Assembly (NCBI GenBank): GCA_032718475.1
Contig: JAUCBJ010000848.1
Coordinates: forward strand, 1 to 32,095
Origin: Nemertoderma westbladi
Lineage: Eukaryota; Animalia; Xenacoelomorpha
Length of the DNA stretch: 32,095 bases
Direction: 5' to 3'
Positions 1,647 through 21,651 of this stretch are shown in pieces; the first letter of the stretch is position 1; each line of letters starts with the position of its first letter. Below the pieces are notes generated by a model, which was not told where the DNA came from, searched no databases, and was given only the letters and a program-made list of their open reading frames with translations. Position numbers and translations under genes: made by a program.

Positions 1647-4600
1647 TTACAGATTTCGATCAAATTTTATATATTTTTTAAAATCCACAGTAAGTAATTT
1701 CGACTTAAAAACGTTAAGAGACGGACTATTCACCACATTAGTAGGTAAATCGTTCCATATGTTAACAACACGGTTGAAAAATACGTTCTCAACACAGTTT
1801 GTATTGCACTTTGACCCACGAATTTTGAAACGATGTCCTCTGGTAATGCAATTTCTTATTACGGTAAAATAGTCATTGCACCTAAGATTAACTAGACCGT
1901 GCATTATCTTAAAAGTGTATACCAAGTCAGCGTGTATCCTACGTAGTTCTAGTGGCTGTAGGCCTAGATATGTCAATCTCTCAATATATGGGATATCTGG
2001 GTCCAGATGACAACGAAAAAACAGACGCCTTGTAAAGTAGCGCTGCACGGCTTCAAGTTTATCAGTTAGACCAAAGAAAGGTACTCCCTTTGTAAATGGA
2101 TTCCAAACACAACTAGCATATTCTAGAACGGGCCGAGTGTATGATTTATAAGCCGTAATCAGCGCTTCTCTGTTAGACGTAATAAAACACCGAAATATTT
2201 TATTAACAGACCGATATGCTGACGCTGTAATATTCAAAATATGCTCTGAGAAATTAAGCCTACTATCAATAGTTACACCAAGATCACGGTAAGCATGCAC
2301 AGAGTCTAGATATTTGCCGTTAATTGTATACATTGGAGATACTGAAGTACCGCTATTTATTGTTAAAACCTTACATTTGTCGTTGGCAACACTCAATTGC
2401 CAGTCATTGGACCAATCTGAGAAAATATTAATGTTATCCTGTAACGTGTATCTATCACTAGCACAATTAATGACGGAAAATAATTTTGCATCATCAGCAA
2501 ACAGTTTCGCAGATGTACCGCTGATCATTTTATTTGGTAGGTCATTAATAAAAATAATAAATAGAAGAGGTCCACAACAGGAACCTTGGGGAACCCCGGA
2601 TATTATAGGATGGTAGTTTGAAAAAGTATTACCTATTTTTACACGTTGTCGCCTACCAGTTAAATAATTTGTAAACCAACGATAGACGTTGCCGCTCATG
2701 CCGTAGTTACGAAGTTTTAATAGTAATTTATCAGTCACCACAGTATCAAAAGCTTTGGCGTAGTCAGTATAGACTACATCAACCATCTTTTTCTTATTTA
2801 CAGCGTTTGCCCAATTATAGGAACTATTTAATAATTGTGCCTCGGTACTGCGACCACTGACAAATCCATATTGATCCTCGCTTATTAAATTATTGCTATG
2901 TAAGAAATATGAAATATCCACAACTAGTATACGTTCTAATAAACGACATACAGACGCCGTCTGTGATATAGGTCTGTAGTTAGGGGCTAAAGAGGTATCA
3001 CCCTTCTTAAAACACGGCGTGATGTCAGCACTTTTCCATCGTGGTGGAAGTTCACCAGTAATTAATGACGTGTTAAATAGTTTACACAAGGGCGTACAAA
3101 GTTCAAATCGTAGTATTTTGAGAACAGCAACTGGTACCCCGTCAGGTGTGCCAGTGTATTTCAATGGTAATTTACAAAGGTGTTTGTAAACCTTTTGTTC
3201 TGATATGCTATGTATATCGAACAGTTTATCTGTTACAGGGGGAAATAAAGGAGTAACATTATTATCATAAACACCAACAGATGAAAATTGCTCGTTCAGA
3301 CATTCGCATTTTTCTATATCTGTTTCAGCTAATGACCCATCAGCTCTTTTTAGAGTTGAAACTGATGGTCGACTAGAAACTCTGTTCTTCGCATATTTAT
3401 AGAATGCTTTTTTACAAGACCCAGTAAGGATTTTAATTTCTTTTTGCATATGAAAATCGCGAATGGCTTTTTCACAAATAAAACAAACACGTCTATAAGC
3501 ACGCAAATCAGTTACGGAATTATTCTTTTTACGCCACAACAACCGCTTAGAAGCCTGCAATTTTCGGATATGCAAGGGTGGGCGGTTTTTATTTTTATTT
3601 GGTATATATTTAGGTACAAACTTCTCAAAGAGATTGTTTAATGTTCCATAGAATATATCACACATCGAATTTATGTTGTTATCACAATTGGAAAATTCAT
3701 TTTCCCAGTTAATGTTATTCAAACTGTCTTTGATACCTACCTGATCCATTTTAACAAAATTATATCTAAGCGGTGGTGGTCCATGGGTCTCAGAATTATT
3801 TAAAAGACAATTATTAATACTAAAAGAAAACCCTTGATGGTCGCTCGGTTTTTGAATAGTCGAGTTTACGGCGCTATTTCCAATTGGAGGTTCACATTGA
3901 ACATCCCCAATTAGAAATGGATCATTACACAACAACAAGTCTAGTATTGCGTCATCACGGGTTGTAAAGTCAATTAATTGGCATAAGTTTGATGCTGAAA
4001 CTGCATTAATAAATTTATCACATTGCGAGTTTGGCCTTTTGTTTAAATCTGACCAATTAATAGCACCAAAATTGAAGTCACCCATAATGAAAACTGGTTG
4101 GGGTACCTCGCTAATTTCAATCATAAGACTGTTAACTAGATTCAAGTACTGATGCATTTCATGGTAGTTATTGTAACATGAGTCTGGCGGACGATAAATG
4201 TAGACAATACGACATTTTTCTACAGTATTTATGTCAACGGATACACACTCTATGCTATTGTAACGTTGAGGGATAGCTACCAGGGTTGGTTGCAGATTAT
4301 TTTTACAAATGATCGCAAAACCCCCGCCACACGTATTGGGTGGACGATCCTTTCGATAAAGTTTATAATCATCTTTAAACTCGCCCAAGAGTAGAGTCCT
4401 CGTCGTCAGGTGTGAGGTGAGTCTCGCATAGACCAACAATATCATAATTAAATGAACCAATTCGCGATTGCAGGTCGCCATATTTGTGTAGACTGCGTAT
4501 TGAACGCACGTTTGCAAAGAAACATTTATTTTTTAAATATTCGATTGCGGTAAACGAGTAGAGGTGCCTCCTACTGGTCGTTTTCCGGGATATGGGATCC

Positions 4601-4674
4601 GGGGTGACTGAGCGATCCAGGTTGGGATTTGTTTGCTTTCTGCTGCAGCCGTGGGGCTCGTTTAGGTCCCACAT
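1647..4674 (-). pseudogene. CR1 ORF2: AP-endonuclease + reverse transcriptase, one frameshift near 4384-4396
   Basis: APE N-terminus (FFANVRS, GLCETHL) is in ORF 4375-4674. The rest (GGGFAI, YIYRPP, MGDFN, LDLLL, SDH; RT NYRPIS, QYGF, DYAKAFD, GVPQGS, FADD; CR1-type tail TRGHRFKI...FFNRVVNIWNDLP) is in ORF 1647-4517. Confidence 0.92.
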
Positions 4675-6160
4675 TCTTTGACTTAAGCTGTTGAAGTGAA
4701 GCTTCCGCGCATTCGTATTCCGCGTCGCTAACTGAAACGCTAGATCTCCAGTTTATTCTACCATCATCCGTTCGCTTACGCAGCACATATGAGTCCGATC
4801 GTTGATCAAAAACTACGAGTATGCGGCCGGATTTATCCCCATTAACGTTAAGACGTTTGCAATGTTCCCATAGAACATTTCGATGGCGGATGGCGTCTGA
4901 ACTTAAACACGGATGCACATAAATAGATTTGAACTGAGAAGATTTCGAAAGAAGGTGCTTCCGGCTCAACAGCAGACTGCGATCGTTGGCTGAATCAAGT
5001 TGTACCTTAATAAGTCGTGGTTTATTAGAGTAGCTAGGTTTGGGGATTCGTTGGATATCTACAACTTTCATCGATGGACAATCTAGAACCGACAACAGTA
5101 ATCCAATTGTATCAACATCACTGCTGGCTGAGGGGGAGTTATCGTGTACATTTTTATCAGGAACTCCTTCAATAATAACAGACGATCGAATAGAATCCGA
5201 TTCATCCTTCTTCCGGAGAATGCTGTTCACACTGTCTACAATACGTTCTTCAAGTGAGTGAGCTTGTGGTTTCACAGCACTATTAGGCCTATCCACTGTA
5301 GGTTGTCTAGGCCTACGCTTGTTAGTATGAGTTTTCCATGTGTTTCCATCACCCGTTCCATTACCGGTACCGGTATCCGTTTCCATGTCGCCAGTAACAA
5401 ACGCACTAAGTTTATCAATCTTCCTACAGAGTAGTTTAATCGATATTGACTCGTCATCTACAGGTTTCTCTAGGCTAATTTGTTCCGTGAATGTTCCAGA
5501 ATTCCTACATTGTTCACATATCTATAATATCAATATATAAGAATTAATTGTTTTATGAACACCAACTGTTAGACCATTGCACTTTGAGCATGTGCACTGC
5601 TTACAACTTCCGCAATTGTCGCACTGTCCTGTGAGCCGTTCCGGTTGGCGCGTGGTTAGGCCTTCCGATGGAGATACCTGGGTGCAGTCTACCTTCGCGC
5701 CACCCTTCGGACGACCTCGAACAGCTCGGTTTGGACCGTCCGCTGGGTTGGCAGGGGCAGTGGTTTTTATTTTCGAAAGTGAACCAGTGCTGGTGCCGGT
5801 ACCGGTGGCAGACTCAAGAACATCATTCGGCGTAGCCGTAGAGTCGCCGTAGCAACTTAGTATATGAAGTTGTAGATCGTCTATATCTCTGAATGTAAGA
5901 TCACAATTGTCACATTTCGCTGAGATTAATCGCCGTTTCCCGACATTGTTCCTTCCCATTATTTGTGTCTTGTGAGCCCTGCTAAGAGTGGACCTTCTAG
6001 GCCTAGGGTCAGCGAGATGCGATTTAACGTCATCGTCAACTCCGGGAGGACCGGTATCTTCGTCAACCCCTGGGTCTTGCGACAGTACATCAATTGAGTC
6101 ATCATCAGACTCCACAAGTAGTGTATCATACCGATTTGTCGACCCACAAGGTGCCGACAT
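4571..6160 (-). pseudogene. CR1 ORF1 (~529 aa): zinc finger, Cys-rich PHD-like region, coiled coil, RRM-like core; single in-frame TAG at 5522-5524
   Basis: ORFs 5522-6187 and 4571-5386 are in the same frame, joined by ILIL*ICEQCRN (likely TGG to TAG in a W-x-C-x2-C motif). Also CDNCDLTFRDIDDLQLHILSC and the ORF1p motifs SSVIIEGVPD...PRLIKVQL...IYVHPCLS. Confidence 0.8.
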
Positions 6161-6339
6161 AATTACTGTACAGCAGTGACACTTCACAGCTTGATGCAGT
6201 TCAAATAAAAATGTAATAATGCAATAATAATTGATTTCTGTACTTGCAGACTCTGCGCTGTATACAGCAGTGCTGAGCTAGACACAGTATGAGTAAATTA
6301 TTAATTGTTACTTGTGATACTGTAGGTTAAACAAATATA

Positions 6340-8972: not shown

Positions 8973-10027
8973 AGAGTTAATTCTATTTTATTTATTAATC
9001 AAGCACGTTAAGTAAAAACCTTAGCAGTAGGTATATCAGTGCCAAAGTATGTAAAAAACTAAAAAGCAACAAGACCTAGACATTGCATGCAATCAATGAT
9101 CAGCTGATGGCAGCCTGCTGATCGGTAGGTTTCGCCCCGCAACTGAAGGCATTCTCAGGAGGCTAAGCCAGGAAATGTAGAGAGAGACTCCCAAAGGGGG
9201 ACGGAACACGTAACGAAATGAAGATATGTCTGTACTGTAACTAACCACTGGGAAGCAGCACCATAAACATGCGCCAGTCACGTTTCTGCTTGTTGATAAC
9301 CGGCTTGCGTGTTTGGATGTAATACATTTCAAGCTTTTGCAATACTGGCCGCAATGGGTGTCTAGCAATTACAGTGAAATGTTTAAACAATTCACGCCAG
9401 TCAGTCAGCCAATGTGTATTAGGCTCGCTACGGTGCGTCATGATGTGGTTGTGCACAGTCTTACCGTGTTCGCTCCCATCATTGGCTGTCCTATCCTGGT
9501 GCTGTCTAACGCGTTCAAACAAGTGTTGGATGGTATGTCCAACATATTCCCCCTTACAAGCGGGATGTACCTATCACTGAACTTTGTGCCCGCAGCAATC
9601 CTCTCGTCGAACTGTGACAGAAAGATGTTGGCGAGTATGGGGCCCAATGGAGACCCCATAGCGACACCATCTTTCTGACAGACATAGTTGCCATGGTGAT
9701 CTAGGAATACGACATCCTTGGTGGCTAACAGCATAAGACCAATAAACTGGTCCTTGCTGATTGGCTGGCTGTCCGGATGCCATTCCTACAGTAGATCAGC
9801 AGCAAGCTGCACCGCCTCCCTCAGTGGGAGTAAAAGAGTGCGGTGTCAAACTTGGTTTTGACCGGATTCTTGGCCCCAAGCCTGAGCACCGACTCAACAA
9901 TCTCAGGTAGGACTATTCCGTCCTCACACCGCACAGTGCCAATAACATTTAGTAAGGGTGTCCCTTGGCTGCCAGACCACCACCTAAACTTTTCATCCTG
10001 GTCAGACCTCCGTCACTCGAGCTTACC
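8973..10027 (-). mobile_element. Penelope-like element, internally deleted copy (RT fragment, GIY-YIG endonuclease end, 3' pLTR-like region)
   Basis: RT motif QKDGVAMGSPLGPILANIFL (ORF 9438-9734) and CKGEYVGHTIQHLFERVRQH...KLEMYYIQTRKPVINKQ. Reverse complement of parts of 19931-21651. Confidence 0.88.
9073..9172 (-). ncRNA. Hammerhead-ribozyme-like motif in the Penelope 3' region
   Basis: CTGAGAAT-GCCTT(CAGTTGC)GGGGC-GAAAC: variant core, stem II and GAAA. Stem I/III assignment is ambiguous. Confidence 0.5.
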
Positions 10028-10178
10028 ATGTTGGGTCAGTGGGAATACCGACCGGCGGATTGGTCTCCTTTCCTCCAGAGTTTGTAGCCTCGCTCCAAAC
10101 AAAGGGAGAATGGAGGAATTTCCTTCGGTTTAGAGATTTCGTTCTTAAAGCGGGTTTTCCTGACCCGCTGTAGTGATT
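10028..10178 (+). mobile_element. Penelope-like element, 5' piece of the plus-strand copy (continues at 19772)
   Basis: ...VFLTRCSD (10154-10177) joins CGVVPRFLAFKVP (from 19771) across a TGATT duplication. Confidence 0.75.
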
Positions 10179-11447
10179 ATCACATATCGCGAGATTTTTA
10201 TGCTGAACTCTCTGAAATGTGTACAGACGCCGGGCTACATATTCTAGATGTCGAATGCCTACCGCCGACAACGTTTACGTATGTAAACGCGACATACACC
10301 TCCACGTCATGGCTCAACCACCTCGTCTGCACAGAGTCGATATCCCATCTGGTCAGTAACATTGCTGTGGAATATGATTCTTCTTTCAGTGATCATTTGG
10401 CACTCCTGGTGGAACTAAACTGGGAGATCTCATCAGTTTTGCCTAGTGAGAACTCCTGCAGTGCTCCGACGGACTTCCAACCGAATTGGGAGAAAGCCAC
10501 AGAGGAAAACATTAGAAATTATCGTCACAAGCTAGACTGTATGCTGGACAACATTACATTCCCTTGTGAAGCAATCTCCTGCAGGAACTGCTCATTTACT
10601 ACTCACAAATCGGATATAAACGACTTTCACGATGATATCGTTAACGCGCTAAAAACGGCAGCCGACCAAACGATTCCGCAGTCCGGTGGTAAACCTGCGG
10701 GAGCGAAGTCCGAGGTATCCGGGTGGAACGCCAATGTAAAGGAGTTCCACCATGATGCTCGAGAGGCGTTCCTCGACTGGCGTGTTGAGGGTAGTCCTCG
10801 CAGTGGCCCCATCCATGAGCAAATGCTCCTAACCCGAGCACGTTTTAAAGACGCATTCCGGCAATGCAAGCGGGATAATGAGACAGCTCGTTGTGATAAA
10901 TATGCACATTCCTTATTATCGGATAGTAAGGGTAACACAAATACACTTTGGAACAACATAAAGCGCGACATTCAGTACCGCTGCGCCCCACCAGCGAATA
11001 TAGGCGGCGTGACTGGAGATGCGAACATTGCGTCTATGTGGTGCGACCATTATTGCGAAATTTTTAATGCAATTCCTCCTGACGCTAACCTCACCCACGT
11101 AAGCGACGCTCTACATAATGTGTCTTTTACTGAAGATATGTTCTTTACACAGAGTGAGATTGTCCCAGCCGTTAGGCTTTTAAAGTTACACAAAGCCCCT
11201 GTACCAGGCGGGGTCTACGCTGAGCATTTAATTAATTCATCAAATAAGCTATTTTTGTTTTTATCATTTTTATATAGTGCCATAAATATACACGGTTATG
11301 ATTCACTCAGTTATTTCGCCTGTTGTAAAAGATAAGTCTGGCAATCTCAGTGATAAGTCAAACTACCGACCCATTGCCTTATCGTCCATTGTTAGTAAAG
11401 TATTTGAATTTATTATTCTCTCACGCATAGAAATTCGTTTATATACA
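10179..11447 (+). pseudogene. 5'-truncated RTE-X-like LINE, first part: APE C-terminus and RT N-terminus
   Basis: FTYVN...SWLNHLVC...FSDHLAL (APE), GWNANVKE...G.PRSG, then frameshifted ISPVVKDKSGNLSDKSNYRPIALSSIVSKVFE. TSD TGATT at 10174-10178 / 19767-19771. Confidence 0.88.
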
Positions 11448-11750
11448 GTTTCCCCGAATCTGGCAGGCACTACAACGGTTTCCTCGAGTTTGTCAGACAC
11501 TATAATGGTTTCCTCGAACATGACAATAGTTTCCTCAGGCTCAGGTTCTGCGGACACTATAACGGTTTCCATGAGTTTGGCAGACACTACAACGGTTTCC
11601 CAGAATTCCAGCACTACAACAGTTTCCTCGAGTTTGGCAGACACGACAATGGTTTCCTCGAGTCTGGCAGACACTATAACGGTTTCCTCGAGTTCTGCAC
11701 CGCCTGTGGTTTACTCGAGCTCGTTAGTCACTACTGCAGTTTCCTCAAAT
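11448..11750 (+). repeat. ~30-bp coding minisatellite (unit about ACGGTTTCCTCGAGTTTGGCAGACACTACA) encoding Ser/Thr-rich TVSSSLADTT repeats
   Basis: About 10 imperfect units, directly visible, with the frame preserved. Confidence 0.85.
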
Positions 11751-12004
11751 TCAGCCAATGCGATGAACATAACCACAAATACAGGTGATAAAAGGAACAC
11801 AAATACTGTAATACCCTCTCCAAATCAACCACAAACCCCCAAACCACCACTGATAACACCCCCTTCGCATACATCACCAGCAGCAACACAAATTCCTATA
11901 GAAGTATACCCAAACAACTCCTCACAAGCAGACCTCTGCACTGATGAAATTGAAATGCATATCGCACAAATCTAAAAAGACTCAAACCAACTGATATACC
12001 AGGA

Positions 12005-14449
12005 ATGATATTTCCAACAGCAAGAGATCTGCAGAGTCTAGAAGAAGGGCAATGGCTGATTGATGCAGTAATTGATGGTTTTTTCAGCTTGCTAAGCAGG
12101 AACTGCCCCACTGTTACATGTGTTCCAAGTCAATTATGTCAAAAACTACAATCAACGAATTATGACAAACTTAGCGCTATTAAATACATCGCTAGACAAT
12201 ATATTGGTACTTACAATGGAGTCAAACCTAACTTTATTCTCATCCCTGAATGTACACAAAACCACTTTGTACTGCATGTTGTGAATATTGCCGAGAAAAA
12301 AGTATACTTTCTGTCTTCACTTGAAAAGTCCCTTCCCAACAAAACAACCTTCCAGATTTGTGATCTTCTGGTTACTATAGATCGATTAACCAAATCAACC
12401 ACAAAGTACCCAAATAATCAATACCGTCAATGGTCGGTTTCAACAAGTCCTTTCGGCTTTCCAAAGCAAGCAAACAATCATGACTGTGGAGTTTATGTTT
12501 GTTTGTATGCCATCGCAATCGCGCAGTCTTCAGAGGTTGTATCTTTCCATAATGACAGCAATAAGTGCAGGCAATGGTTATACGATTGTCTGCAATCAGT
12601 AAAGTTCTACATGCCAAATGACTCACACACCCAGCAAAGTACAACCTGCCTGAAAACTCCTCTGCATGGTGAACAGCTAGTAAATCTTCTAAAAAAACAA
12701 TCAGACCCTGATACATTTGTCTCCACACTGCGTACATCCCTTCTATTACAAAACCCCAAAGATGACCTTGTAAATTTTCTAAAAGAACTTGGCTTTAAGT
12801 TTCTAAGTAAAATACAGAAGGACCTTTTCAATTATATAAATCGTACAATAATGGGTGAAAAAATGGGGTTAAAGTGCTCATGCATAAACAGAAAATCCCT
12901 AGATGAATTGGCATTGGATGTTGCAGAGTTTGCGATAGTTTTGGAAGAAAGGGCATTAACATCTTCCTTCAAGAAGAGAATAAATGCGAGCAGCGCTGAT
13001 GCTTTTGTGGTGCTGGAACTCATAAACCTCGTAACTACACTGCAAGTAGAAATCAAGTCCTTAAATACCCAATGTCAATCATATAATGTGCGGATCAAAA
13101 GTTTAGAAAGTACAATATCTAAGCTACAAAATGGTCTCCACTTTCAGACTGCCTGTCCCAACAACCTAAGGGAAAACCCCAACAATAGCTGCAATAAGAA
13201 AAAGGGTAAAAAGAAAAAGAAAAAAAATGCCCACAAAACTGGACATGGCAGGAATGATCAAAATGTCAATGCGAGTACAACTTCAGAATATAGTTTTGCT
13301 GACCCTGCATCAGACACTGGCACCCCTAATTCTGATACTGAACTAATTACTCCTCTAAATCAACAACCATCATCATTATCAATAGACAGAGATAATGAAC
13401 AAACTATATCTTTTCCTCAGCCTAGTTCCCTTCAAGATGTTTTGCTAAGTGAGAATGCGTGGACCAGCACCAACACAAAGACTTCTGTGAAATGTGGTAA
13501 AAACACCAACGACTTCCTGCCATCAGTAGTAACATCCAACATCTATGACAACTTGGATGATGTTAAAGCTGTTGGGAATATGTTGAAGAGGCAAAATGAT
13601 CTCCTAAATGATATTCTTACGTCACAAAAGGTAAATGCCCCAAAACCACAAGGAAATAGCAACAATAAAGAATCCGATTATAATAGGAACCAACCTGTCA
13701 TTCCTAAACATAAACTTGCAACCATCTTTGTTTCTGGTCTACAACCAAATAGCTCCTCAGTATCTGTCTCACAATATTGCTTTAAACAATCAGGTTATAG
13801 GCCAGTCAATGTCTGGGTGACTGGAAACAAAGGGCATACTAAAAGAGCTAAAATCACTATTGAAACAGAATATACAAATATATTCTTGAGACAAGATTTC
13901 TGGCCTAAAGGATGCTATGTAAATGCAAATATCACAAATGACCATGCCCCACAGACAAGTTATCTAAGATATAACTATAATGAAAATGATCCCAACCACC
14001 CTTATATTTACCAAAAAATTATGCTGGAAGCGAATAATGAAACAAATCATGAGACCAAAACCTATAACAAAACTTCAAATCAACAATACCAAGTTCCCAA
14101 AGCAGCAACTAGTGTTCGAATAAAAGATCCAAGAAACACAAACTACTACCTAAATCAAAGTAGATCATATGATCCCTATATGATCCAGAGAATCATGGTG
14201 GAAGCAAATAATGATTACTCTCATCAAACAGAAACTAAGCCAAATAACTGGGTTCCACGAACTACAAGTAACAAAACAATCAATACCACGTCTAACCTAC
14301 AGAGAAATCTGCTGCCTTATTCCTATCAGAACTTTCCTCTTTCAACTTCTCCACCATATAACAGCCATGGATATCAAAATTATCCATATTGTCAGACAAA
14401 AAGAGACTCTCCCTACCCGATACACCCACAGAGGAGATATCACTTTTAA
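12005..14449 (+). CDS. LINE ORF1 protein with N-terminal Ulp1/SENP-like peptidase C48 domain, coiled coil, Lys-rich patch and RRM-like domain
   Basis: DLQSLEEGQWLIDAVID; ILIP...NHFVLHVVN...VYFLSSL; PKQANNHDCGVYVC; heptads LVTTLQVEIKSLNTQCQSYNVRIKSLESTISKL; KKKGKKKKKK; IFVSGL...AKITI...FWPKGCYV. Confidence 0.88.
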   Translation: MIFPTARDLQSLEEGQWLIDAVIDGFFSLLSRNCPTVTCVPSQLCQKLQSTNYDKLSAIKYIARQYIGTYNGVKPNFILIPECTQNHFVLHVVNIAEKKVYFLSSLEKSLPNKTTFQICDLLVTIDRLTKSTTKYPNNQYRQWSVSTSPFGFPKQANNHDCGVYVCLYAIAIAQSSEVVSFHNDSNKCRQWLYDCLQSVKFYMPNDSHTQQSTTCLKTPLHGEQLVNLLKKQSDPDTFVSTLRTSLLLQNPKDDLVNFLKELGFKFLSKIQKDLFNYINRTIMGEKMGLKCSCINRKSLDELALDVAEFAIVLEERALTSSFKKRINASSADAFVVLELINLVTTLQVEIKSLNTQCQSYNVRIKSLESTISKLQNGLHFQTACPNNLRENPNNSCNKKKGKKKKKKNAHKTGHGRNDQNVNASTTSEYSFADPASDTGTPNSDTELITPLNQQPSSLSIDRDNEQTISFPQPSSLQDVLLSENAWTSTNTKTSVKCGKNTNDFLPSVVTSNIYDNLDDVKAVGNMLKRQNDLLNDILTSQKVNAPKPQGNSNNKESDYNRNQPVIPKHKLATIFVSGLQPNSSSVSVSQYCFKQSGYRPVNVWVTGNKGHTKRAKITIETEYTNIFLRQDFWPKGCYVNANITNDHAPQTSYLRYNYNENDPNHPYIYQKIMLEANNETNHETKTYNKTSNQQYQVPKAATSVRIKDPRNTNYYLNQSRSYDPYMIQRIMVEANNDYSHQTETKPNNWVPRTTSNKTINTTSNLQRNLLPYSYQNFPLSTSPPYNSHGYQNYPYCQTKRDSPYPIHPQRRYHF

Positions 14450-17408
14450 AGCAGTTAAAACCGAGAGCAGTAACATCCCCAGAAATCAACCGTACAAGTT
14501 AAAAATGCTTACATTTAACTGTGAAGGTTTCACAAGAAATTCAAAATACCTGGGAGAAATTTTACAGAATCAGGAACCATCAATCATGTGCATCCAGGAA
14601 CACTGGCTTGGGCCATTGCAATCAGATGTGCTTTTTACACGGAGAAAATTACACAGCAATTTTTCATGTCCGACATATACAGTGTCTAGTGAAATGCTGA
14701 AGCCTAAACCTAGAGTTTGCGGCGAAGGTGGTACAGCGATATATGTAAGAAATGACATAATACCGCATTGGAAAAGTTTTAAAACCGGTTCTGACCGAAT
14801 TTCTGGCATTGTCATCAGATCTTTGTTTACTGAAGACATAGCAATTTTAAATGTATACTTGCCATCAAACTGTGGAAGAGAGGATGATGAATCTAATTAT
14901 CTTAAAGAAGTTGGGAAACTAGGACTGATCATTGATGAATGTTTAAACCAAAATCTAACCCCAATTGTTATGGGGGATATAAATGGGGTCATAAAGGGAG
15001 ATCAGCAGTTACAGCCCAGAGGAGCTGTCAAATCATCGAAGTTTGGAGACATTTTCCTTGAGAAAATTATATCAGAATACAACTTCATCGCTGCGGACAT
15101 GACTCAAAAAACGAATGGAAACAGATTTACTTATCTCATGCAGTGCAAAGATGGAGACAAAAAAAGCCACATCGATCATACCTTCATACCTACATCATGG
15201 TACAACTATCTCACAGGTGGAGTAATTTTCAACTGTACCAAAAACAATGTTTCAAGACACCTACCCGTGCTCTCAGAGATCACATTAAATACTCATCCAA
15301 ATAAACACCATGCAATGGTGAGAAAGACAAAAAACAAAAATATTCGTTTTCATTTTAATAGAGCATCCAAACAGCAATTAGAATCCTACCGTGCTGAAAT
15401 AGAACAGAATCTTCTTTATTATACAAGCCAAGACATCAATAGTAAGGCAGAACTCGTGGTAAAAACTATTGGAAATGCCTGCAGATCAAATATTCCCTCC
15501 TCTTTCGTCAAATATAGAACATATAATCAATCAGATAAAAATCCATCGTTTGAGTATAAAAGTCATGTGAAGTCGCTTGTGGCATCAAACCGCACCAATC
15601 CTAGCGCTTTCTGGAGGAAAATTAAGCCCAAAAGAGTTACAAATACAGTTTCTGATATCCACCTTAGCAAAATATTTAGTACCATCAAAACCAGCTTATC
15701 TTTACCCGAAAACGAAAAGTATTCTGCAGCTCAGCAAACTGGTCAATGCAACCCAACCAAACAATCTGGCCAATGCAACCCAACCAAACAACATACAGTA
15801 AATCCCTCTGAAATCTACAATCTAATTAGTAAACTAAACACTGGCAAAACTAGTGATCTATATGGGATAAATGCTGAATGTCTCATATATGGGCGGACGG
15901 AGACTCTATGCTCCTTCATTGCAGAACTTTTTGCAGAAATTTCTAACAGTGGTGTATGCCCAAAGATTTTCTCTCTTGGGACCATTGCACCCGTGCCCAA
16001 ACTCCATAAGACAGAATGTATTATTCCACAAGAACAATCCTTCAGGAACATAAGTGTTACACTTACATTAGGAAAGCTCTGGGAACTATCCATCTTGAAA
16101 GAAATAACATCTATATCTCCAAATCACCTGCAACTAGGATACAAACCACACATAGGATCAGACATAGCCCATCAAGCCGTTTCCAGTCTCATCAACAAAT
16201 TTACTAAGAAGGGATCTCCTATGTACCTACTCAGTTTGGATCTTAGCTGTGCCTTTGATATGATATCTCATAGCAAACTCTTTCATAAACTAAGACAAAC
16301 CAATATAGACGGAAACATAATCAACGCTTTAGAATCGTACTACAACCAATCTTCTGCATATGTCTCTTGTGGGGGATACACTATAGGTGAACCAATTGCA
16401 ATTCAACAGGGAGTGAGACAGGGTGGTATCTTGTCACCTTTCCTGTTCAATTTCTATCTGACAGACCTATTCGAACAGCTCGAAAAGTCAAACCTTGGTA
16501 TCCACATTAAAGATATTTCTTTCTGCGCCATAAACTACGCTGATGACATTATAATCCTGGCGAACATGAAGTCACACCTCACTAGTTTACTGGAAATTTG
16601 TTCACAGTATCTCAGAGATCACAACCTCAAATTAAATGAGTCAAAGTGTCACTTCCTGTCCATTAACACCAAAGGCACTACGAACACCAATGACATGCTT
16701 ACCCTCAAGGATAAAACACTGCAATCAAAAAAAAGTTGCAAATATATGGGCATTCCCCTCCCAGCTGATGGCAAAACAATATCAAAGTTTGTAATTGGAA
16801 AAATTTGGGGCAATGTAGGTCTGATCTCGCACCGAGGTCTAACAATCAATGAAGTCCCACTGGATGTAACTAAACTAGTTTGGAACACAATTTGCCTATC
16901 GAGCATTCTATATGGCTCTGCTGCTCTACCATCAGGAAAAATTGACAAAACAGCTAAGGAGTTGCGTAAAGCGATGCGTCATATTATCGGAATGAACAAC
17001 AGAATTTCAAACAAAGTGATATATCAGCTATTTGGAATGGACGTGGAATTACAGCTTAGATTGAATCAATTTCAATTAATATACAGATTATTTAATACAA
17101 AGAATCCCAAACTAGCCTTTCTCTTTGGTAGTACATTGTGTGACCATTGTGTGGGACCCTCAGTAGACATATTTGCATCATATAATTTCACAGCATGGAG
17201 ATATAATAATCCGAATTTGTTATCCATTGCTGTCCACCCATATTCAACCAAACATTGTAGTCAAACCGCAAAAATGGCCCAGACGGCGGATATTAGCCCC
17301 AAGGATCAATTCACCACTTGGTACTCGCAATCACTCTTGAACAATACAAACTACGCTATATCCACTAGATTAATGATATTAAAGGAATTTCTAAATCCCC
17401 ACACGTAG
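14211..17408 (+). CDS. LINE ORF2: AP-endonuclease + reverse transcriptase, uninterrupted (homology starts near the Met at 14505)
   Basis: LTFNCEG, CIQEHWL, GGTAIYV, NVYLP, MGDIN, HIDH, SRHLPV; RT LDLSCAFD, GVRQGGILSP, YADD, KYMG. Confidence 0.93.
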   Translation: MITLIKQKLSQITGFHELQVTKQSIPRLTYREICCLIPIRTFLFQLLHHITAMDIKIIHIVRQKETLPTRYTHRGDITFKAVKTESSNIPRNQPYKLKMLTFNCEGFTRNSKYLGEILQNQEPSIMCIQEHWLGPLQSDVLFTRRKLHSNFSCPTYTVSSEMLKPKPRVCGEGGTAIYVRNDIIPHWKSFKTGSDRISGIVIRSLFTEDIAILNVYLPSNCGREDDESNYLKEVGKLGLIIDECLNQNLTPIVMGDINGVIKGDQQLQPRGAVKSSKFGDIFLEKIISEYNFIAADMTQKTNGNRFTYLMQCKDGDKKSHIDHTFIPTSWYNYLTGGVIFNCTKNNVSRHLPVLSEITLNTHPNKHHAMVRKTKNKNIRFHFNRASKQQLESYRAEIEQNLLYYTSQDINSKAELVVKTIGNACRSNIPSSFVKYRTYNQSDKNPSFEYKSHVKSLVASNRTNPSAFWRKIKPKRVTNTVSDIHLSKIFSTIKTSLSLPENEKYSAAQQTGQCNPTKQSGQCNPTKQHTVNPSEIYNLISKLNTGKTSDLYGINAECLIYGRTETLCSFIAELFAEISNSGVCPKIFSLGTIAPVPKLHKTECIIPQEQSFRNISVTLTLGKLWELSILKEITSISPNHLQLGYKPHIGSDIAHQAVSSLINKFTKKGSPMYLLSLDLSCAFDMISHSKLFHKLRQTNIDGNIINALESYYNQSSAYVSCGGYTIGEPIAIQQGVRQGGILSPFLFNFYLTDLFEQLEKSNLGIHIKDISFCAINYADDIIILANMKSHLTSLLEICSQYLRDHNLKLNESKCHFLSINTKGTTNTNDMLTLKDKTLQSKKSCKYMGIPLPADGKTISKFVIGKIWGNVGLISHRGLTINEVPLDVTKLVWNTICLSSILYGSAALPSGKIDKTAKELRKAMRHIIGMNNRISNKVIYQLFGMDVELQLRLNQFQLIYRLFNTKNPKLAFLFGSTLCDHCVGPSVDIFASYNFTAWRYNNPNLLSIAVHPYSTKHCSQTAKMAQTADISPKDQFTTWYSQSLLNNTNYAISTRLMILKEFLNPHT
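15735..15791 (+). repeat. 27-bp in-frame tandem duplication in ORF2 (QTGQCNPTK QSGQCNPTK)
   Basis: Directly visible duplicate of CAA(A/T)CTGG(T/C)CAATGCAACCCAACCAAA. Confidence 0.85.
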
Positions 17409-17647
17409 CATTTTTCACATCTTTTGTGCTAGTGCTATGTCGCTTGATTAATAACAATTAATTCACGAAATTTATTTTAATTTGATTTGAATTTTTGAAA
17501 TGTATATCACATAATAATATCTTAATGCCTAAAGAATAGTGAATGGTTTATTTCGAGTACTAACATTGGCTTGAAATGCATACCGGTATGTATAATTATA
17601 TTTTAAATTCCTATACGCAGCATTTTTCACATCTATTTACTGGTATA

Positions 17648-18212
17648 CGTGTAAAATCGATTTTTAATATATCTGCGGCAAATAAGCTATTGGTGCAGTG
17701 CCAACGTAGCATATTTCACATCTATATACCGGTGTCGAATTATGTATATCTATATACTGGTGTTGGGTCGGTGCCCGTGCCCGTGTAAAATCGATTTTTA
17801 ATATATCTGCGGCAAATAAGCTATTGGTACAGTCCCAACGTAGCATATTTCACATCTATATACCGGTGTCGAATTCTGTATATCTATATACTGGTGTCGG
17901 TGCCCGTGCCCGTGTAAAATCGATTTTTTGTATATCTGCGGCAAATAAGCTATTGGTGCAGTGCCAACGTAGCATATTTCACATCTATATACCGGTGTCG
18001 AATTCTGTATATCTATATACTGGTGTCGGTGCCCGTGCCGGTGTAAAATCGATTTTTTGTATATCTGCGGCAAATAAGCTATTGGTGCAGTGCCAACGTA
18101 GCATATTTCACAACTATATACCGGTATCGAATTCTGTATATCTATATACTGGTGTCGGTATATATATACTGGTTGTCAACGTAGCATATTTCACAACTAT
18201 ATACCGGTATCG
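17648..18212 (+). repeat. ~129-bp tandem repeat array (4 units plus a partial) in the LINE 3' UTR
   Basis: Units start at about 17648, 17782, 17911 and 18040 with (C/G)GTGTAAAATCGATTTTT...GCGGCAAATAAGCTATTGG and are nearly identical. Confidence 0.92.
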
Positions 18213-18523
18213 TTTTTGTTTTGTATATCGGCGGCGAAGAAGTTTTGGTACAGTGCCAGTGCTACGTCACTTGTTAATAGCAATTCACGAAATTTATTAT
18301 TTTTCTTCATTTGAATTTTGAATTATGATTCTATATGTATATCACATAATATGTCATATTGAATGGCTTATTTAGTGTACTATCTATCACTGGCTTGAAA
18401 TCCACATATTGTCTACTTGTGGCAACCGAATAGAAATAGTATTATTTTATGTGCCCTTATTCTTTTATTTTAAGCGTTATGTGCGTCGATTTTTATGATT
18501 TTATTTATGGCAATATTATAGCG

Positions 18524-18538
18524 CCGGGGACATCCCGG
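18524..18538 (+). other. 3'-terminal stem-loop of the inner LINE (CCGGG-GACAT-CCCGG)
   Basis: GC-rich hairpin immediately before the (TA)n tail, where some LINE clades carry their RT recognition loop. Confidence 0.55.
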
Positions 18539-18555
18539 ATTTTAATATATATATA

Positions 18556-19766
18556 TATATACAACTGATAACCAGTTCGGTTTCAAGAAATCTCTGGGTA
18601 CTGAGCTCTCAGTTTATTCGCTAAAAGAAATAATTAATAAGTACTTGCTTAATGGTTCTAATGTCTACATAGCTTTTCTCGATGCTAGTAAAGCCTTCGA
18701 TCATATAGATCATGGGATATTATTCTCCCGCTTATTAGAACGTGGAATTTCTTTATTTATTTTGAGAATTTTATTTTTCTGGTACCGCAATCAAACTATT
18801 GCAGTTTAGTGGGCGGGGGCTCTGTCTCAGGCTTTCCATTGCATAAATGGCTGCAGACAGGGCAGTATACTCAGCCCCAGTTTATACAATGTGTTTATCA
18901 ATAGTCTTAGTATTAAACTTACCGATTGTGATATAGGATGCAATCTAAACTTAAGGTGCATTAATCATTTATTGTATGCTGACGACCTGGTCCTAATTGC
19001 ATCCAACCCGTCTGCTTTACAGTATTTGCTAAGCATTTGCAGTAAATTTGCTAATGATAATAATATGGATTATAATATTAAAAAGTCAAAGTGTTTGGTG
19101 TTACATAGCCGTCTCCGGAAATGCTTCACAATATTACCGCATTTTATTCTTAGTGATAAACCGTTAGAAATTGTATCAAAGTACAAATACTTAGGCCATA
19201 TTATAAGTTCTGATTTCTGCGATGATTTAGACATCAAAGCGCAGACTAGATGCTTTTATGCTCGATCTAATATAATTGTGCGTAAATTTAGTAAATGTTC
19301 TCTAGCTGTTAAACTGCGACTATTTGCAGCATACTGTGGAAACGTTTACTGTAATGCCCTATGGTCCGACGTATATTTTACCCAGAATGTATTTAACAAA
19401 TTGAGGGTCGCACTAAATAATTCTGTGCGTAAGTTATTCGGGTTTGGTAGAATGGACAGTGCGAGCGGAATGCTTACTCAGCTTCGCATCAACTCCATTA
19501 TTCACACCCGTAGATTCTCATTGCATAGCCTATTTAAAAGAGTGTGTTTATCTACTAATAATGTATTACTAGCCATACGGCGATGTTGCTTATCTGAATC
19601 CGCAATATTTTTGTCATATAAGACAATTAATTACTAACTTATATACTATTAATTACAACTTTATACAGTACTTACGTTGTTTTATCATTTTATATTTTAT
19701 GTTGTGCTTATTAAATTAATATATATGTTTTTATTCACGAATTAAATAAATAAATAAATAAATAAA
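18556..19766 (+). pseudogene. RTE-X-like LINE, second part: RT core to C-terminus, 3' UTR and (TAAA)n tail
   Basis: TDNQFGFKK...FLDASKAFD...AV*W...GCRQGSILSP, YADD, KYLG (ORF 18891-19637). (TAAA)n at 19743-19766. Confidence 0.9.
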
Positions 19767-21651
19767 TGATTGTGGCGTGGTGCCACGGTTCCTAGCCTTT
19801 AAGGTACCACCCTCTCGCCCATTCGCCGAACCGGAGGCAGGGTTGGCCTTCCAGCGACGGTTGCTAAACACAACCATAGCTCGGAAGGTCACAGAGCTGA
19901 AGGCCGCGGAGGACCGAGTAGTAGGTGTGACGGTAAGCTAGAACGACGGAGGTCTGACCAGGATGAAAAGTTTAGGTGGTGGGCTGGCAGCCAAGGAACG
20001 CCCTTACTAAACGTTATTGGCATGGTTCGGTGTGAGGATGGAATAGTCCTACCTGAGATTGTTGAGTCGGTGCTCAGGCTTGGGGCCAAGAATCCGGTCA
20101 AAACCAAGTTTGACACCGCACTATTTTACTCCCAGGTGGACTATTTCACCCACACCACCGATGCGGATAAAGTAAGTATGTCCCACCACGCCCAGAATTA
20201 CGCTCAGTTAATGCGCCTCCAGCGGCAGTCTATGCTGTCTCTACAATGGCGCGTTATCTGAATCAACAGGGCGTGATTGCTGTGCCATTCGACAAGGGGA
20301 ATGGGTACTGAATTATGAAGAAGGAGTCGTACCTCGCCAAGGCGGATGCGCTCATCACCGACCCGACCAAGTTTGATCCCCCACCCGGTCGACCCAGTGC
20401 TGTTAAGATAGATATCTACCGTCGGAGGGCGGAGGTTATTCGGGACGAGGTCACCAGAATCGTGGGGAAGGAGAATAAGGAACTTCTGGCCAGGCTATTG
20501 CCTCGCAAAGATACCACTCCTCAGCGTGGTACCACAAGCCTACAGATACTGGGCTCATTCTCAATGCCACTGCGTGTGCCCCTGAGTCTCACAAACGCGG
20601 TGTGGTTCAAGGTATGTTTCATCGCATCTTTAATGCCAGTAAGGGTGGGGATGGTTTCCAACTCTATACCGCTATTGGGGATGCTAAGAATATTCTTAGC
20701 AATAACCAATATACTGATACGATGGTCGAGCATGAGCTAGCTGTAGTTCAAGCCGCTAGGGGGCATGCAGGCAGTGGTTCTGGGGGCGAGGCACCAACAG
20801 CTGTCCCCACTGAGGTCATTGACCCGGTCGACCAGGCAGCTGCTGATGATTCCAAGCCTATTATCTGTAAGTTCGAGTACTGAGGTCTGGCAACTGATCT
20901 GTTTGTTCGAAAGTTACGTGGTCTTATACCCAGGTCTTGCACATGGCCAGTTTGGTTTGTTTTTACAACATCTAAACTGCGCGAGTCACTCCCATCTCTC
21001 AAACACCCCATCCCGGAAATCCTTGCGTCTAATGTCGTTTAGTCTTTCTCTTGTCCCTCTTGTAAGGGGGAATATGTTGGACACACCATTCAACACTTGT
21101 TTGAACGCGTTAGACAGCACCAGGATGGGACAGCCAATGATGGGAGCGAACACGGTAAGACTGTGCACAACCATATCATGATGCACCACGGCGAGCCCAA
21201 TACATGTTGGCTGACTGACTGGCGTGAATTATTTAAACATTTCACTGTAATTGCTACACACCCTTTGCGGCCAGTCTTGCAAAAGCTTGAAATGTATTAC
21301 ATCCAAACACGCAAGCCGGTTATCAACAAGCAGAAACATGACTGGCGCAAGTTTATGGTGCTGCTTCCCAGTGCAGTGGTTAGTTACAGTACAGACATAT
21401 CTTCATTTCGTTTCCTGTTCCGTCCCCCTTTGGGAATCTCTCTCTACATTTCCTGGCTTGGCCTCCTGAGAATGCCTTCAGTTGCGGGGCGAAACCTACC
21501 GATCAGCTGGCTGCCGTCAGCTGATCACTGATTGCATGCAATGTCTAGGTCTTGTTGCTTTTTAGTTTTTTATATACTTTGGCACTGACATACATACCGG
21601 TACGGTTTTTACTTAATGTGCTTGATTAATAAATAAAATACAATTAACTCT
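19767..21651 (+). mobile_element. Penelope-like element, plus-strand internally deleted copy (N-terminus, RT thumb, GIY-YIG endonuclease, 3' region)
   Basis: CGVVPRFLAFKVP...FQRRLL; PFDKG; VQGMFHRIFNAS...ILSNNQY; NVV*SFSCPSCKGEYVGHT...ERVRQH...LEMYYIQTRKPVINKQ. Confidence 0.88.
21455..21551 (+). ncRNA. Hammerhead-ribozyme-like motif in the Penelope 3' region
   Basis: CTGAGAA at 21466-21472, stem II GCCTT/GGGGC, GAAAC at 21491. Possible stem III CCTA/TAGG ending in GTC at 21549-21551. Confidence 0.5.

What the first reader, a model, noticed from the sequence alone, without database searches (positions are those of the whole stretch)
12005..14449. APE-type LINE whose ORF1p is fused to a Ulp1/SENP-like SUMO/ubiquitin-like protease
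Seen: aa 1-~200 show the C48 pattern (L..L..G.WL.D.VID; His87; Gln155-x5-Cys161 in QANNHDCG). They lie in the same open frame as a coiled coil, a poly-Lys patch and an RRM-like FWP.G..V ORF1p core, inside TSD-defined element boundaries next to an open APE-RT ORF2. Established: Ulp1-like domains are known in NeSL-clade (restriction-like endonuclease) retrotransposons and DNA transposons such as plant MULEs and Zisupton, and SUMOylation contributes to TE silencing. I do not recall this domain as an ORF1p module of an RTE-X-like LINE. Inference: a retrotransposon RNP carrying its own deSUMOylase/deNEDDylase as an anti-silencing factor, or for self-processing of a long ORF1 polyprotein.
Basis: partly seen in the sequence, partly recalled or inferred. 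Interest (0 to 1): 0.85.

Follow-up and report, generated by a model that had tools for sequence, protein, structure and literature searches.

The report
LINE packaging protein with SUMO-protease domain
A young jumping gene carries, inside the protein that likely packages its RNA, a domain built like the enzymes that cut SUMO tags off proteins but with one of its three catalytic residues swapped, so it likely strips or grips the host tags that help silence such elements.

Summary
ORF 12005-14449 begins with a Ulp1/SENP (C48) domain (Pfam E=1.7e-8; model pLDDT 86, best structural match SENP5). It is in frame with a predicted trimeric coiled coil and a lysine patch, ahead of an open APE-RT ORF2, inside an 8-bp target duplication whose empty site exists in a public run.

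Three corrections:
(1) His87, Gln155 and Cys161 are kept, but the triad acid is Ser104 (Asp/Asn in 149 of 149 relatives).
(2) Met12005 is probably not the family's start: this copy looks 5'-truncated, and another run's contig has one more base at 11969, joining an upstream open frame.
(3) The RRM and the RTEX label are unconfirmed.

Public contigs show the domain in several sequence contexts, a variant with Thr at the acid position, and a second diverged paralog, so it is not a one-off chimera. ORF1 has no Gly-Gly, which argues against self-processing.

Ulp1 domains are known from NeSL/Utopia, Ginger1 and Mutator/VANC elements; earlier scan notes found them in NeSL-type LINEs and DNA transposons. 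Ten paper searches showed none in an APE-LINE ORF1p; Repbase/Dfam could not be checked. Best reading: an RNP-borne SUMO remover or binder, activity untested.

The parts
11440..11447 (+). Left copy of the 8-bp target site duplication TATATACA
   Evidence: empty site in a contig of run X3, skip of 7116, 8 letters fit both sides
11448..18555 (+). The LINE insertion, 7.1 kb, probably 5'-truncated, very young
   Evidence: 5' junction bridged by X2 contig 11418-11837; 5 other letters over 5377 bases in six listed X1 contigs
11448..11693 (+). 30-bp tandem repeat, 8.4 copies, reads as Ser/Thr-rich repeats in the upstream frame
11448..11975 (+). Upstream open frame (Ser/Thr/Pro-rich), likely the N-terminal part of ORF1p, separated from the protease frame in this copy by a one-base frameshift near 11969
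   Evidence: Non-repeat part 11700-11969 open in this frame; 295 and 349 of 20000 shuffles are. The X3 contig has one more base at 11969; X1 and X2 read as the window
12017..12598 (+). Ulp1/SENP-like C48 domain (about aa 5-198 from Met12005)
12263..12265 (+). Catalytic His87
   Evidence: His in 149 of 149 relatives
12314..12316 (+). Ser104 (TCT) at the triad acid position
   Evidence: Asp 136, Asn 13, Ser 0 of 149 relatives; no other letter listed here in X1-X3
12467..12487 (+). Oxyanion Gln155 and nucleophile Cys161
   Evidence: Both invariant in 150 of 150 relatives
12336..12618 (+). 283-bp stretch shared letter for letter with another sequence context that diverges on both sides in X1 and X3, and on the 5' side in X2
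   Evidence: Loose ends and contig pieces
12989..13138 (+). Coiled coil, aa 329-378, predicted parallel homotrimer
   Evidence: score 0.78, best of 3 controls 0.23
13196..13225 (+). Lysine-rich patch, aa 398-407; RNA binding or nuclear import inferred
   Evidence: Sequence
13718..13927 (+). RRM-like segment IFVSGL...FWP.G..V, aa 572-641, unconfirmed
   Evidence: Motif recalled from LINE ORF1 proteins; Atlas look-alikes 0.90-0.92 in unnamed eukaryotic clusters; no Pfam/PDB RRM hit; fold failed
14184..17408 (+). ORF2 frame: APE endonuclease (14508-15203) and reverse transcriptase (16032-16757, YADD); first Met after the ORF1 stop at 14505
17409..18555 (+). 3' UTR with a 129-bp tandem repeat (3.9 copies, 17648-18159) and a (TA)n tail
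18556..18563 (+). Right copy of the target site duplication
10088..11447 (+). 5' half of the older host LINE whose RT is split by the insertion (...EIRLYT)
18564..19767 (+). 3' half of the host LINE RT (DNQFGFKK...) and its (TAAA)n tail

Best explanation
This is a young APE-RT LINE whose first protein carries a SUMO-protease-fold (C48) domain ahead of a predicted trimeric coiled coil, and the domain likely removes SUMO from host proteins through an unusual Cys-His-Ser triad, which would blunt SUMO-dependent repression of the element. Shown: the fold, His87/Gln155/Cys161, Ser104, the in-frame fusion, the element boundaries, and the domain in several sequence contexts. Predicted: trimer formation. 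Inferred: the ORF1p trimers coat the element RNA through the basic patch and the RRM-like part, so each RNP would carry many protease domains to wherever it assembles or integrates, and these would act on SUMOylated silencing or restriction proteins nearby. The domain was probably taken from a Ulp1-bearing DNA transposon (weak tree support). The window's copy looks 5'-truncated and frameshifted upstream of the domain; the family form would have a longer low-complexity N-terminus.
For: Fold and core: (SUMO proteases rank above NEDD8 protease). Family feature: X3 holds the C48 contigs (57-90 deep) with no contig listed over this copy's 5' junction; a different in-frame upstream sequence enters at 11808 in X1, X2 and X3; X1 contig 12589-14695 and X2 contig 12336-13053 bridge the protease to the coiled coil. 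Retention through divergence: a loose end before 12336 in all three runs translates by hand to IFTSLVKQT against FLSSLEKSL (score 11, reached by 182 of 49674 random 9-codon stretches), putting Thr at the acid position. Contigs of X1 and X3 match only 12482-12522, with flanks YPTQENSY and TNSEVPHFH; the second scores 24 against QSSEVVSFH, reached by 1 of 49674 random stretches and 0 of 150 C48 relatives. Cys-His-Ser triads occur in Tae3, RavD and vasohibin (PMC10318531, passages). SUMO loss de-represses R1 and R2 about 1000- and 300-fold in fly ovaries (PMC7676866, section 8). A Ulp1 domain is fused to the anti-silencing protein VANC in some Vandal transposons (PMC13317346, passages). Trimer model: 0.78 against a best control of 0.23, contacts agree at least 90%, partner pLDDT at least 82; the mark was reached by 21 of 30 solved pairs and 0 of 23 single chains in microbes, and 17 of 29 and 0 of 30 in eukaryotes; only three copies were tried, and the pass may reflect likeness to solved coiled coils.
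Against: No C48 relative has Ser at the acid position (0 of 149). Two more near-invariant substrate-side positions differ: Trp88 to Phe (3 of 149) and Asn19 to Ile (0 of 144). Activity and substrate are untested. The Thr variant and the paralog rest on 30-letter loose ends; the paralog's Cys codon lies in a 41-letter match with 8 unlisted differences, so it is not shown intact, and its carrier is not shown to be a LINE. No dN/dS was possible. No relative of the non-protease part of ORF1 was found. The function of Ulp1 in Vandal is itself stated to be unknown. The R1/R2 effect is tied to rDNA transcription, not to LINEs in general.
Confidence: 0.45

Rival explanations
1. The domain is a weak or dead protease kept as a SUMO/ubiquitin-like binding module, which docks the RNP on SUMOylated chromatin, nuclear pores or granules, or shields conjugates.
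For: Triad acid replaced by Ser, Trp88 to Phe, Asn19 to Ile. Fold kept with high confidence. Retention in diverged variants.
Against: Cys161, His87 and Gln155 are all kept, which a pure binder does not need. A hydroxyl residue appears at the acid position in two variants (Ser, Thr). Cys-His-Ser enzymes exist.
Confidence: 0.28
2. The domain is an active deconjugase for ubiquitin or NEDD8 rather than SUMO, protecting ORF1p/ORF2p from degradation, like the role proposed for the Josephin domain of Dualen.
For: PF02902-type enzymes include ubiquitin and NEDD8 proteases (PMC10318531). Identity to SENPs is only 18-24%. Dualen precedent (PMC8557442, passage).
Against: SUMO proteases outrank NEDP1/Den1 and XopD/NopD in the fold search, and SENP1/2/Ulp1 lead the sequence search.
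Confidence: 0.12
3. The domain is a neutral passenger: a piece of a Ulp1-bearing DNA transposon recently fused into the 5' part of ORF1 and now decaying.
For: In a quick tree it sits in a weak group (SH-aLRT 80, 10 rows) with two Ulp1+PHD proteins and a 1204-aa protein that looks transposase-like by eye. The second paralog could be such a donor. Mosaic joints lie inside the domain.
Against: The frame is open through about 200 codons with the core motifs intact. The acid substitution needs two base changes from Asp or Asn codons and is shared by all three runs. The diverged variants stay open and in register.
Confidence: 0.1
4. The domain cuts the long ORF1 protein, or an ORF1-ORF2 fusion, into mature parts, as viral CE-clan proteases do.
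For: ORF1 is unusually long. It ends CAC TTT TAA with ORF2 open in the +1 frame from 14184, so a fusion by frameshift is possible. Viral processing proteases share the fold.
Against: No Gly-Gly in ORF1 or the upstream frame; the four in ORF2 lie at aa 182, 345, 730 and 747, in or right beside the APE and RT domains.
Confidence: 0.05

Closest known systems
NeSL and Utopia-1_TSP non-LTR retrotransposons of nematodes (PMC4640811, passages)
   Same: Non-LTR retrotransposon with an N-terminal Ulp1-like protease domain
   Different: Those have one ORF with zinc fingers, RT and a restriction-like endonuclease; here the protease is in a separate ORF1 with a coiled coil, and the endonuclease is APE
Ginger1 and Mutator DNA transposons with Ulp1 or Ulp1+PHD (PMC2836005, passages); VANC/KAONASHI of Vandal elements (PMC13317346, passages)
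   Same: Transposon-borne C48 domain; in Vandal it is fused to an anti-silencing protein; Ulp1+PHD proteins are among the nearest rows in my tree (weak support)
   Different: DNA transposons, no RNP; function of their Ulp1 domain stated as unknown; the relatives aligned here keep Asp/Asn in the triad
Dualen non-LTR elements with a Josephin-like protease (as cited in PMC8557442, passage)
   Same: Non-LTR element with a ubiquitin-type cysteine protease, proposed to disrupt protein degradation
   Different: Josephin, not C48; from recall, a single long ORF with both APE and RLE
Esterase-bearing ORF1p of CR1/L2/RTEX elements, such as ZfL2-1 (PMC3905857, passages; PMC4120745, abstract and word search)
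   Same: An enzyme module swapped into ORF1p next to a coiled coil
   Different: Esterase follows the coiled coil, and none in Repbase also had an RRM; here a protease precedes the coiled coil and an RRM-like segment follows. The 448-element Jockey-superfamily ORF1 survey has no occurrence of protease, peptidase, Ulp1 or OTU in its main text
Human SENP1/2/5 and yeast Ulp1 (MEROPS C48)
   Same: Fold, His, Gln, Cys, first Trp and GV motif
   Different: Triad Asp is Ser; His-Trp is His-Phe; 18-24% structural identity

Membership tests
Ulp1/SENP peptidase C48 | Profile score above the Pfam gathering cut-off | tested here: met
   35 bits against 20.7
Ulp1/SENP peptidase C48 | SENP fold | tested here: met
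   pLDDT 86; Foldseek SENP5 E=1.3e-11, TM 0.75
Ulp1/SENP peptidase C48 | Catalytic His and Cys, oxyanion Gln | tested here: met
   His87, Gln155, Cys161
Ulp1/SENP peptidase C48 | Asp or Asn as third triad residue | tested here: not met
   Ser104; Asp 136, Asn 13, Ser 0 of 149. It has the C48 fold but is not a canonical C48 enzyme
Ulp1/SENP peptidase C48 | Two Trp residues over the substrate Gly-Gly tunnel (role recalled) | tested here: inconclusive
   Trp17 kept; position 88 is Phe, seen in 3 of 149
Ulp1/SENP peptidase C48 | Cleavage after Gly-Gly of a ubiquitin-like protein | not testable with these tools
   Needs an assay
APE-type non-LTR retrotransposon | ORF2 with APE endonuclease then RT | tested here: met
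   the usual SDH motif (recalled) reads SRH
APE-type non-LTR retrotransposon | Target site duplication, simple-repeat 3' tail, empty site | tested here: met
APE-type non-LTR retrotransposon | ORF1 with a multimerising coiled coil | tested here: met
   Predicted only:
APE-type non-LTR retrotransposon | RRM in ORF1 | tested here: inconclusive
RTEX clade | RT groups with labelled RTEX references | tested here: inconclusive
   Long branch (1.98); 100/100 with the host LINE and 15 unlabelled relatives, apart from the window's CR1/L2-like RT; long branches meet. No labelled references available; the RTEX name is recalled from motifs
NeSL/Utopia clade | Single ORF with C-terminal restriction-like endonuclease | tested here: not met
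   Two ORFs, N-terminal APE, no RLE family hit

The most novel reading that the evidence does not exclude
A lineage of APE-type LINEs has built an active deSUMOylase with a Cys-His-Ser/Thr triad into its trimeric RNA-packaging protein, giving a retrotransposon its own enzyme against SUMO-dependent silencing, with subfamilies swapping pieces of the protease by recombination as in an arms race.
Probability: 0.3. Interest if true: 0.8.

Novelty: new variant of a known kind. Interest (0 to 1): 0.6.

Why it matters
Ulp1 domains have been picked up again and again by transposons, and the papers read give their role as unknown or proposed. Here one sits in the ORF1 position of a young, two-ORF LINE with an open ORF2, the layout for which cell-culture retrotransposition assays exist. 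A single C161A control would therefore test directly whether a transposon-borne SUMO protease helps an element escape the host. If active, it is also a C48-fold enzyme with a hydroxyl triad residue, seen in none of 149 relatives. If inactive, it is a SUMO-type reader in an ORF1p. Either would be a new ORF1p module beside RRM, PHD, zinc knuckle and esterase.

Tried and rejected
No assembly is held for this window, so copies could not be pulled whole.

Searches for relatives. Word-index search with ORF1: 0 of 7994 candidates; with the RRM-like part: 0 of 15. Both were limited by length and shared words, so they are no proof of absence. All 150 listed hits of 323 in the representative search matched through the protease, and none matched the rest of ORF1 below E 0.2. 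Of 69 of them scanned by Pfam, none had RT or endonuclease. Metagenome scan with ORF2: 1 of 24 stretches, 29% identity, uninformative. Atlas on aa 200-660: best 0.83, lead only.

Tests that came out negative. The upstream frame continuing the SENP N-terminal helix across the frameshift: 157 of 200 shuffles scored as high. A shared C-terminal extension with Ulp1+PHD proteins: 413 of 997 shuffles as high. RRM fold failed, pLDDT 41. C48 tree: no starred group holds the query. Rfam: 0 matches in 11400-18700.

Runs. No RNA holder listed, which says nothing on expression. X5 covered 7 of 30 bins and X4 none, no proof of absence. Contig depth was not used as copy number.

Papers. The gastropod paper's supplement has no clade labels. 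Sasaki et al. 2022 was not held. bioRxiv supplements and Repbase/Dfam were not visible and may bear on novelty.

Full report
Observation. The + strand frame 11954-14449 is open, 814 aa from Met12005. Its first 200 residues are a C48 domain by profile (Pfam E=1.7e-8, above cut-off), by sequence to solved SENP2, Ulp1 and SENP1 (best E=4.7e-10) and by fold. An AlphaFold2 model on an 88-row alignment has pLDDT 86, and its best Foldseek match is SENP5-SUMO1 (E=1.3e-11, TM 0.75), with NEDD8 protease lower at E=1.9e-8. Downstream in the same frame lie a heptad repeat (11 of 13 a/d positions hydrophobic), a lysine patch, and an RRM-like stretch. The heptad region folds as a parallel trimer in a three-copy model: score 0.78, best of 3 controls 0.23, contacts agreeing at least 90%, partner pLDDT at least 82. 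That mark was reached by 21 of 30 solved pairs and 0 of 23 single chains in the microbial calibration, and 17 of 29 and 0 of 30 in eukaryotes; the calibration held two copies, and the pass may reflect likeness to solved coiled coils. The RRM is not confirmed; its motif is recalled.

The element. ORF2 is open from 14184 to 17408 with APE and RT domains. The unit interrupts the RT of an older LINE, whose frame reads ...EIRLYT on the left and resumes TDNQFGFKK on the right, with TATATACA duplicated at 11440-11447 and 18556-18563. A contig of run X3 joins 11439 to 18556 with 8 letters fitting both sides, and X1 and X2 have contigs that leave the window at 11447 into the host sequence. An X2 contig bridges the 5' junction. 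Six listed X1 contigs differ from the window at 5 of 5377 bases, so the insertion is young. In an RT tree of 20 rows ORF2 is a long branch grouped 100/100 with the host LINE and 15 unlabelled relatives, apart from the window's CR1/L2-like RT (fragments aligning over fewer than 180 residues were left out). Its best database relatives are 21-33% identical. The RTEX label is plausible from recalled motifs but untested.

Where ORF1 starts. A second frame is open from the 5' junction to a stop at 11973-11975. Its non-repeat part (11700-11969) is open in 295 and 349 of 20000 shuffles, and the other two frames have 7 and 5 stops. The X3 contig over this place has one more base at 11969, which puts the two frames in register; X1 and X2 read as the window. 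The simplest reading is that this copy is 5'-truncated and has lost one base, and that the family's ORF1p has a Ser/Thr/Pro-rich extension before the protease. A profile test for homology of the upstream peptide to the SENP N-terminal helix was negative (157 of 200 shuffles as high), so this rests on the open frame and on one run.

Is it a one-off? Laid at 80% likeness, three runs from two studies (X2 and X3 are one sample by record) show branching in and around the domain. (a) A different upstream sequence enters at 11808 in all three; by hand it is open in frame and Pro/Ser/Thr/Gln-rich. (b) X3 holds the protease contigs while no contig is listed over this copy's 5' junction. (c) A loose end before 12336 in all three translates to IFTSLVKQT against FLSSLEKSL, a score reached by 182 of 49674 random stretches (29 of 150 relatives also reach it), and places Thr at the acid position. 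(d) Contigs of 1079 and 798 bases in X1 and X3 match only 12482-12522 (8 differences in 41), with flanks YPTQENSY and TNSEVPHFH. The latter scores 24 against QSSEVVSFH, reached by 1 of 49674 random stretches and 0 of 150 relatives (best 8), so it is a close paralog and not a generic SENP. Its Cys codon is not shown and its carrier is unknown. (e) In X1 and X3 another path leaves at 12618. X2 also has a path leaving at 11847, so some of these branches may belong to a related family rather than to copies of this one. Seven loose ends and 17 pieces were not shown. Together this shows a small family of diverged, recombining C48 sequences, not a single accident. These points rest on 30-letter ends translated by hand.

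Active site. In an alignment with the 150 listed relatives, His87 (149 of 149), Gln155 and Cys161 (150 of 150) are kept. The acid column is Asp in 136 and Asn in 13 of 149, and the query has Ser (TCT), two base changes from an Asp or Asn codon, with no other letter listed in X1-X3. Trp88 is Phe (3 of 149) and Asn19 is Ile (0 of 144). The canonical triad is Cys-His-Asp/Asn (PMC4822132, passages), but Cys-His-Ser triads occur in Tae3, RavD and vasohibin, and several families work as dyads (PMC10318531, passages). I put activity at about even odds to somewhat better.

Mechanism. Most likely ORF1p trimerises, packages the element RNA (inferred from the general role of ORF1p, PMC3905857, passages), and so brings many C48 domains along. 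These would remove, or at least bind, SUMO on host proteins that repress or restrict the element. SUMO is needed for piRNA-guided transposon silencing and for repression of R1 and R2 in Drosophila (PMC7676866, abstract and section 8). Ulp1 is fused to the anti-silencing protein VANC in some Vandal elements, where its function is unknown (PMC13317346, passages). Self-processing is unlikely, since ORF1 has no Gly-Gly. A DNA-transposon origin is suggested by a weak tree group (SH-aLRT 80) with two Ulp1+PHD proteins, an architecture known from Ginger1 and Mutator. No starred branch holds the query, and a shared-extension test failed.

Novelty. Ulp1 domains are known in NeSL and Utopia-1_TSP (single ORF, RLE; PMC4640811, passages), in Ginger1 and Mutator (PMC2836005, passages), and a Josephin protease in Dualen (PMC8557442, passage). 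Zisupton is recalled only. A survey of 448 Jockey-superfamily ORF1s has no occurrence of protease, peptidase, Ulp1 or OTU in its main text (PMC4120745, abstract and word search); it does not cover RTEX. Ten full-text searches (most hits seen as listings only) showed no C48 domain in the ORF1 of an APE-type LINE. Repbase, Dfam and subscription papers could not be searched, so a catalogue entry may exist. Earlier scan notes report Ulp1 in NeSL-type LINEs and in DNA transposons of other genomes, none in an APE ORF1 and none by sequence or in this genome.

Verdict. Interest 0.6.

Noticed in passing
window 14438-14510: ORF1 ends CAC TTT TAA with ORF2 in the +1 frame, open since 14184; the first Met after the stop (14505) is only 4 residues before the APE Asn. 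A +1 shift at the stop, or initiation inside the overlap, is possible.
   Followed up: partly
window 12336-12618: A 283-bp stretch of the protease is identical between sequence contexts that diverge on both sides (X1, X3) or on the 5' side only (X2): recombination or gene conversion between subfamilies.
   Followed up: partly
window 18514-18563: The 3' end (short GC-rich hairpin-like stretch plus (TA)n) is shared with other contigs; one in X5 continues ATATACATC after the tail, hinting at a preference for TATACA-like targets.
   Followed up: no
window 17648-18159: 129-bp tandem repeat, 3.9 copies at 96%, in the 3' UTR, with shorter related copies at 17389-17640 and 18174-18260; no Rfam match.
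   Followed up: partly
window 12284: The window and X2 have Asn94 where X1 and X3 contigs encode Asp, the residue SENP2 has there.
   Followed up: yes
window 15720-16658: A diverged RT subfamily shows in X1 and X5 contigs, with substitutions and small indels.
   Followed up: partly
window 15252-15260: The APE motif usually read SDH (recalled) is SRH here.
   Followed up: no
window 1647-6277 (-): A CR1/L2-like LINE with an open APE-RT frame (1647-4532), an ORF1-like frame (4571-5521) and a further upstream frame with a weak C2H2 finger (5522-6277).
   Followed up: no
window 9241-9785 (-) and 20312-21531 (-): Two related fragments that look like Penelope-type RT plus GIY-YIG elements (by eye); the sequence left of the host LINE resembles that on its right.
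   Followed up: no
window 13960-14260: The ORF1 tail holds a duplicated peptide (Y..Q.IM.EANN...H.T.TK) inside an Asn/Tyr/Pro-rich, likely disordered region.
   Followed up: no
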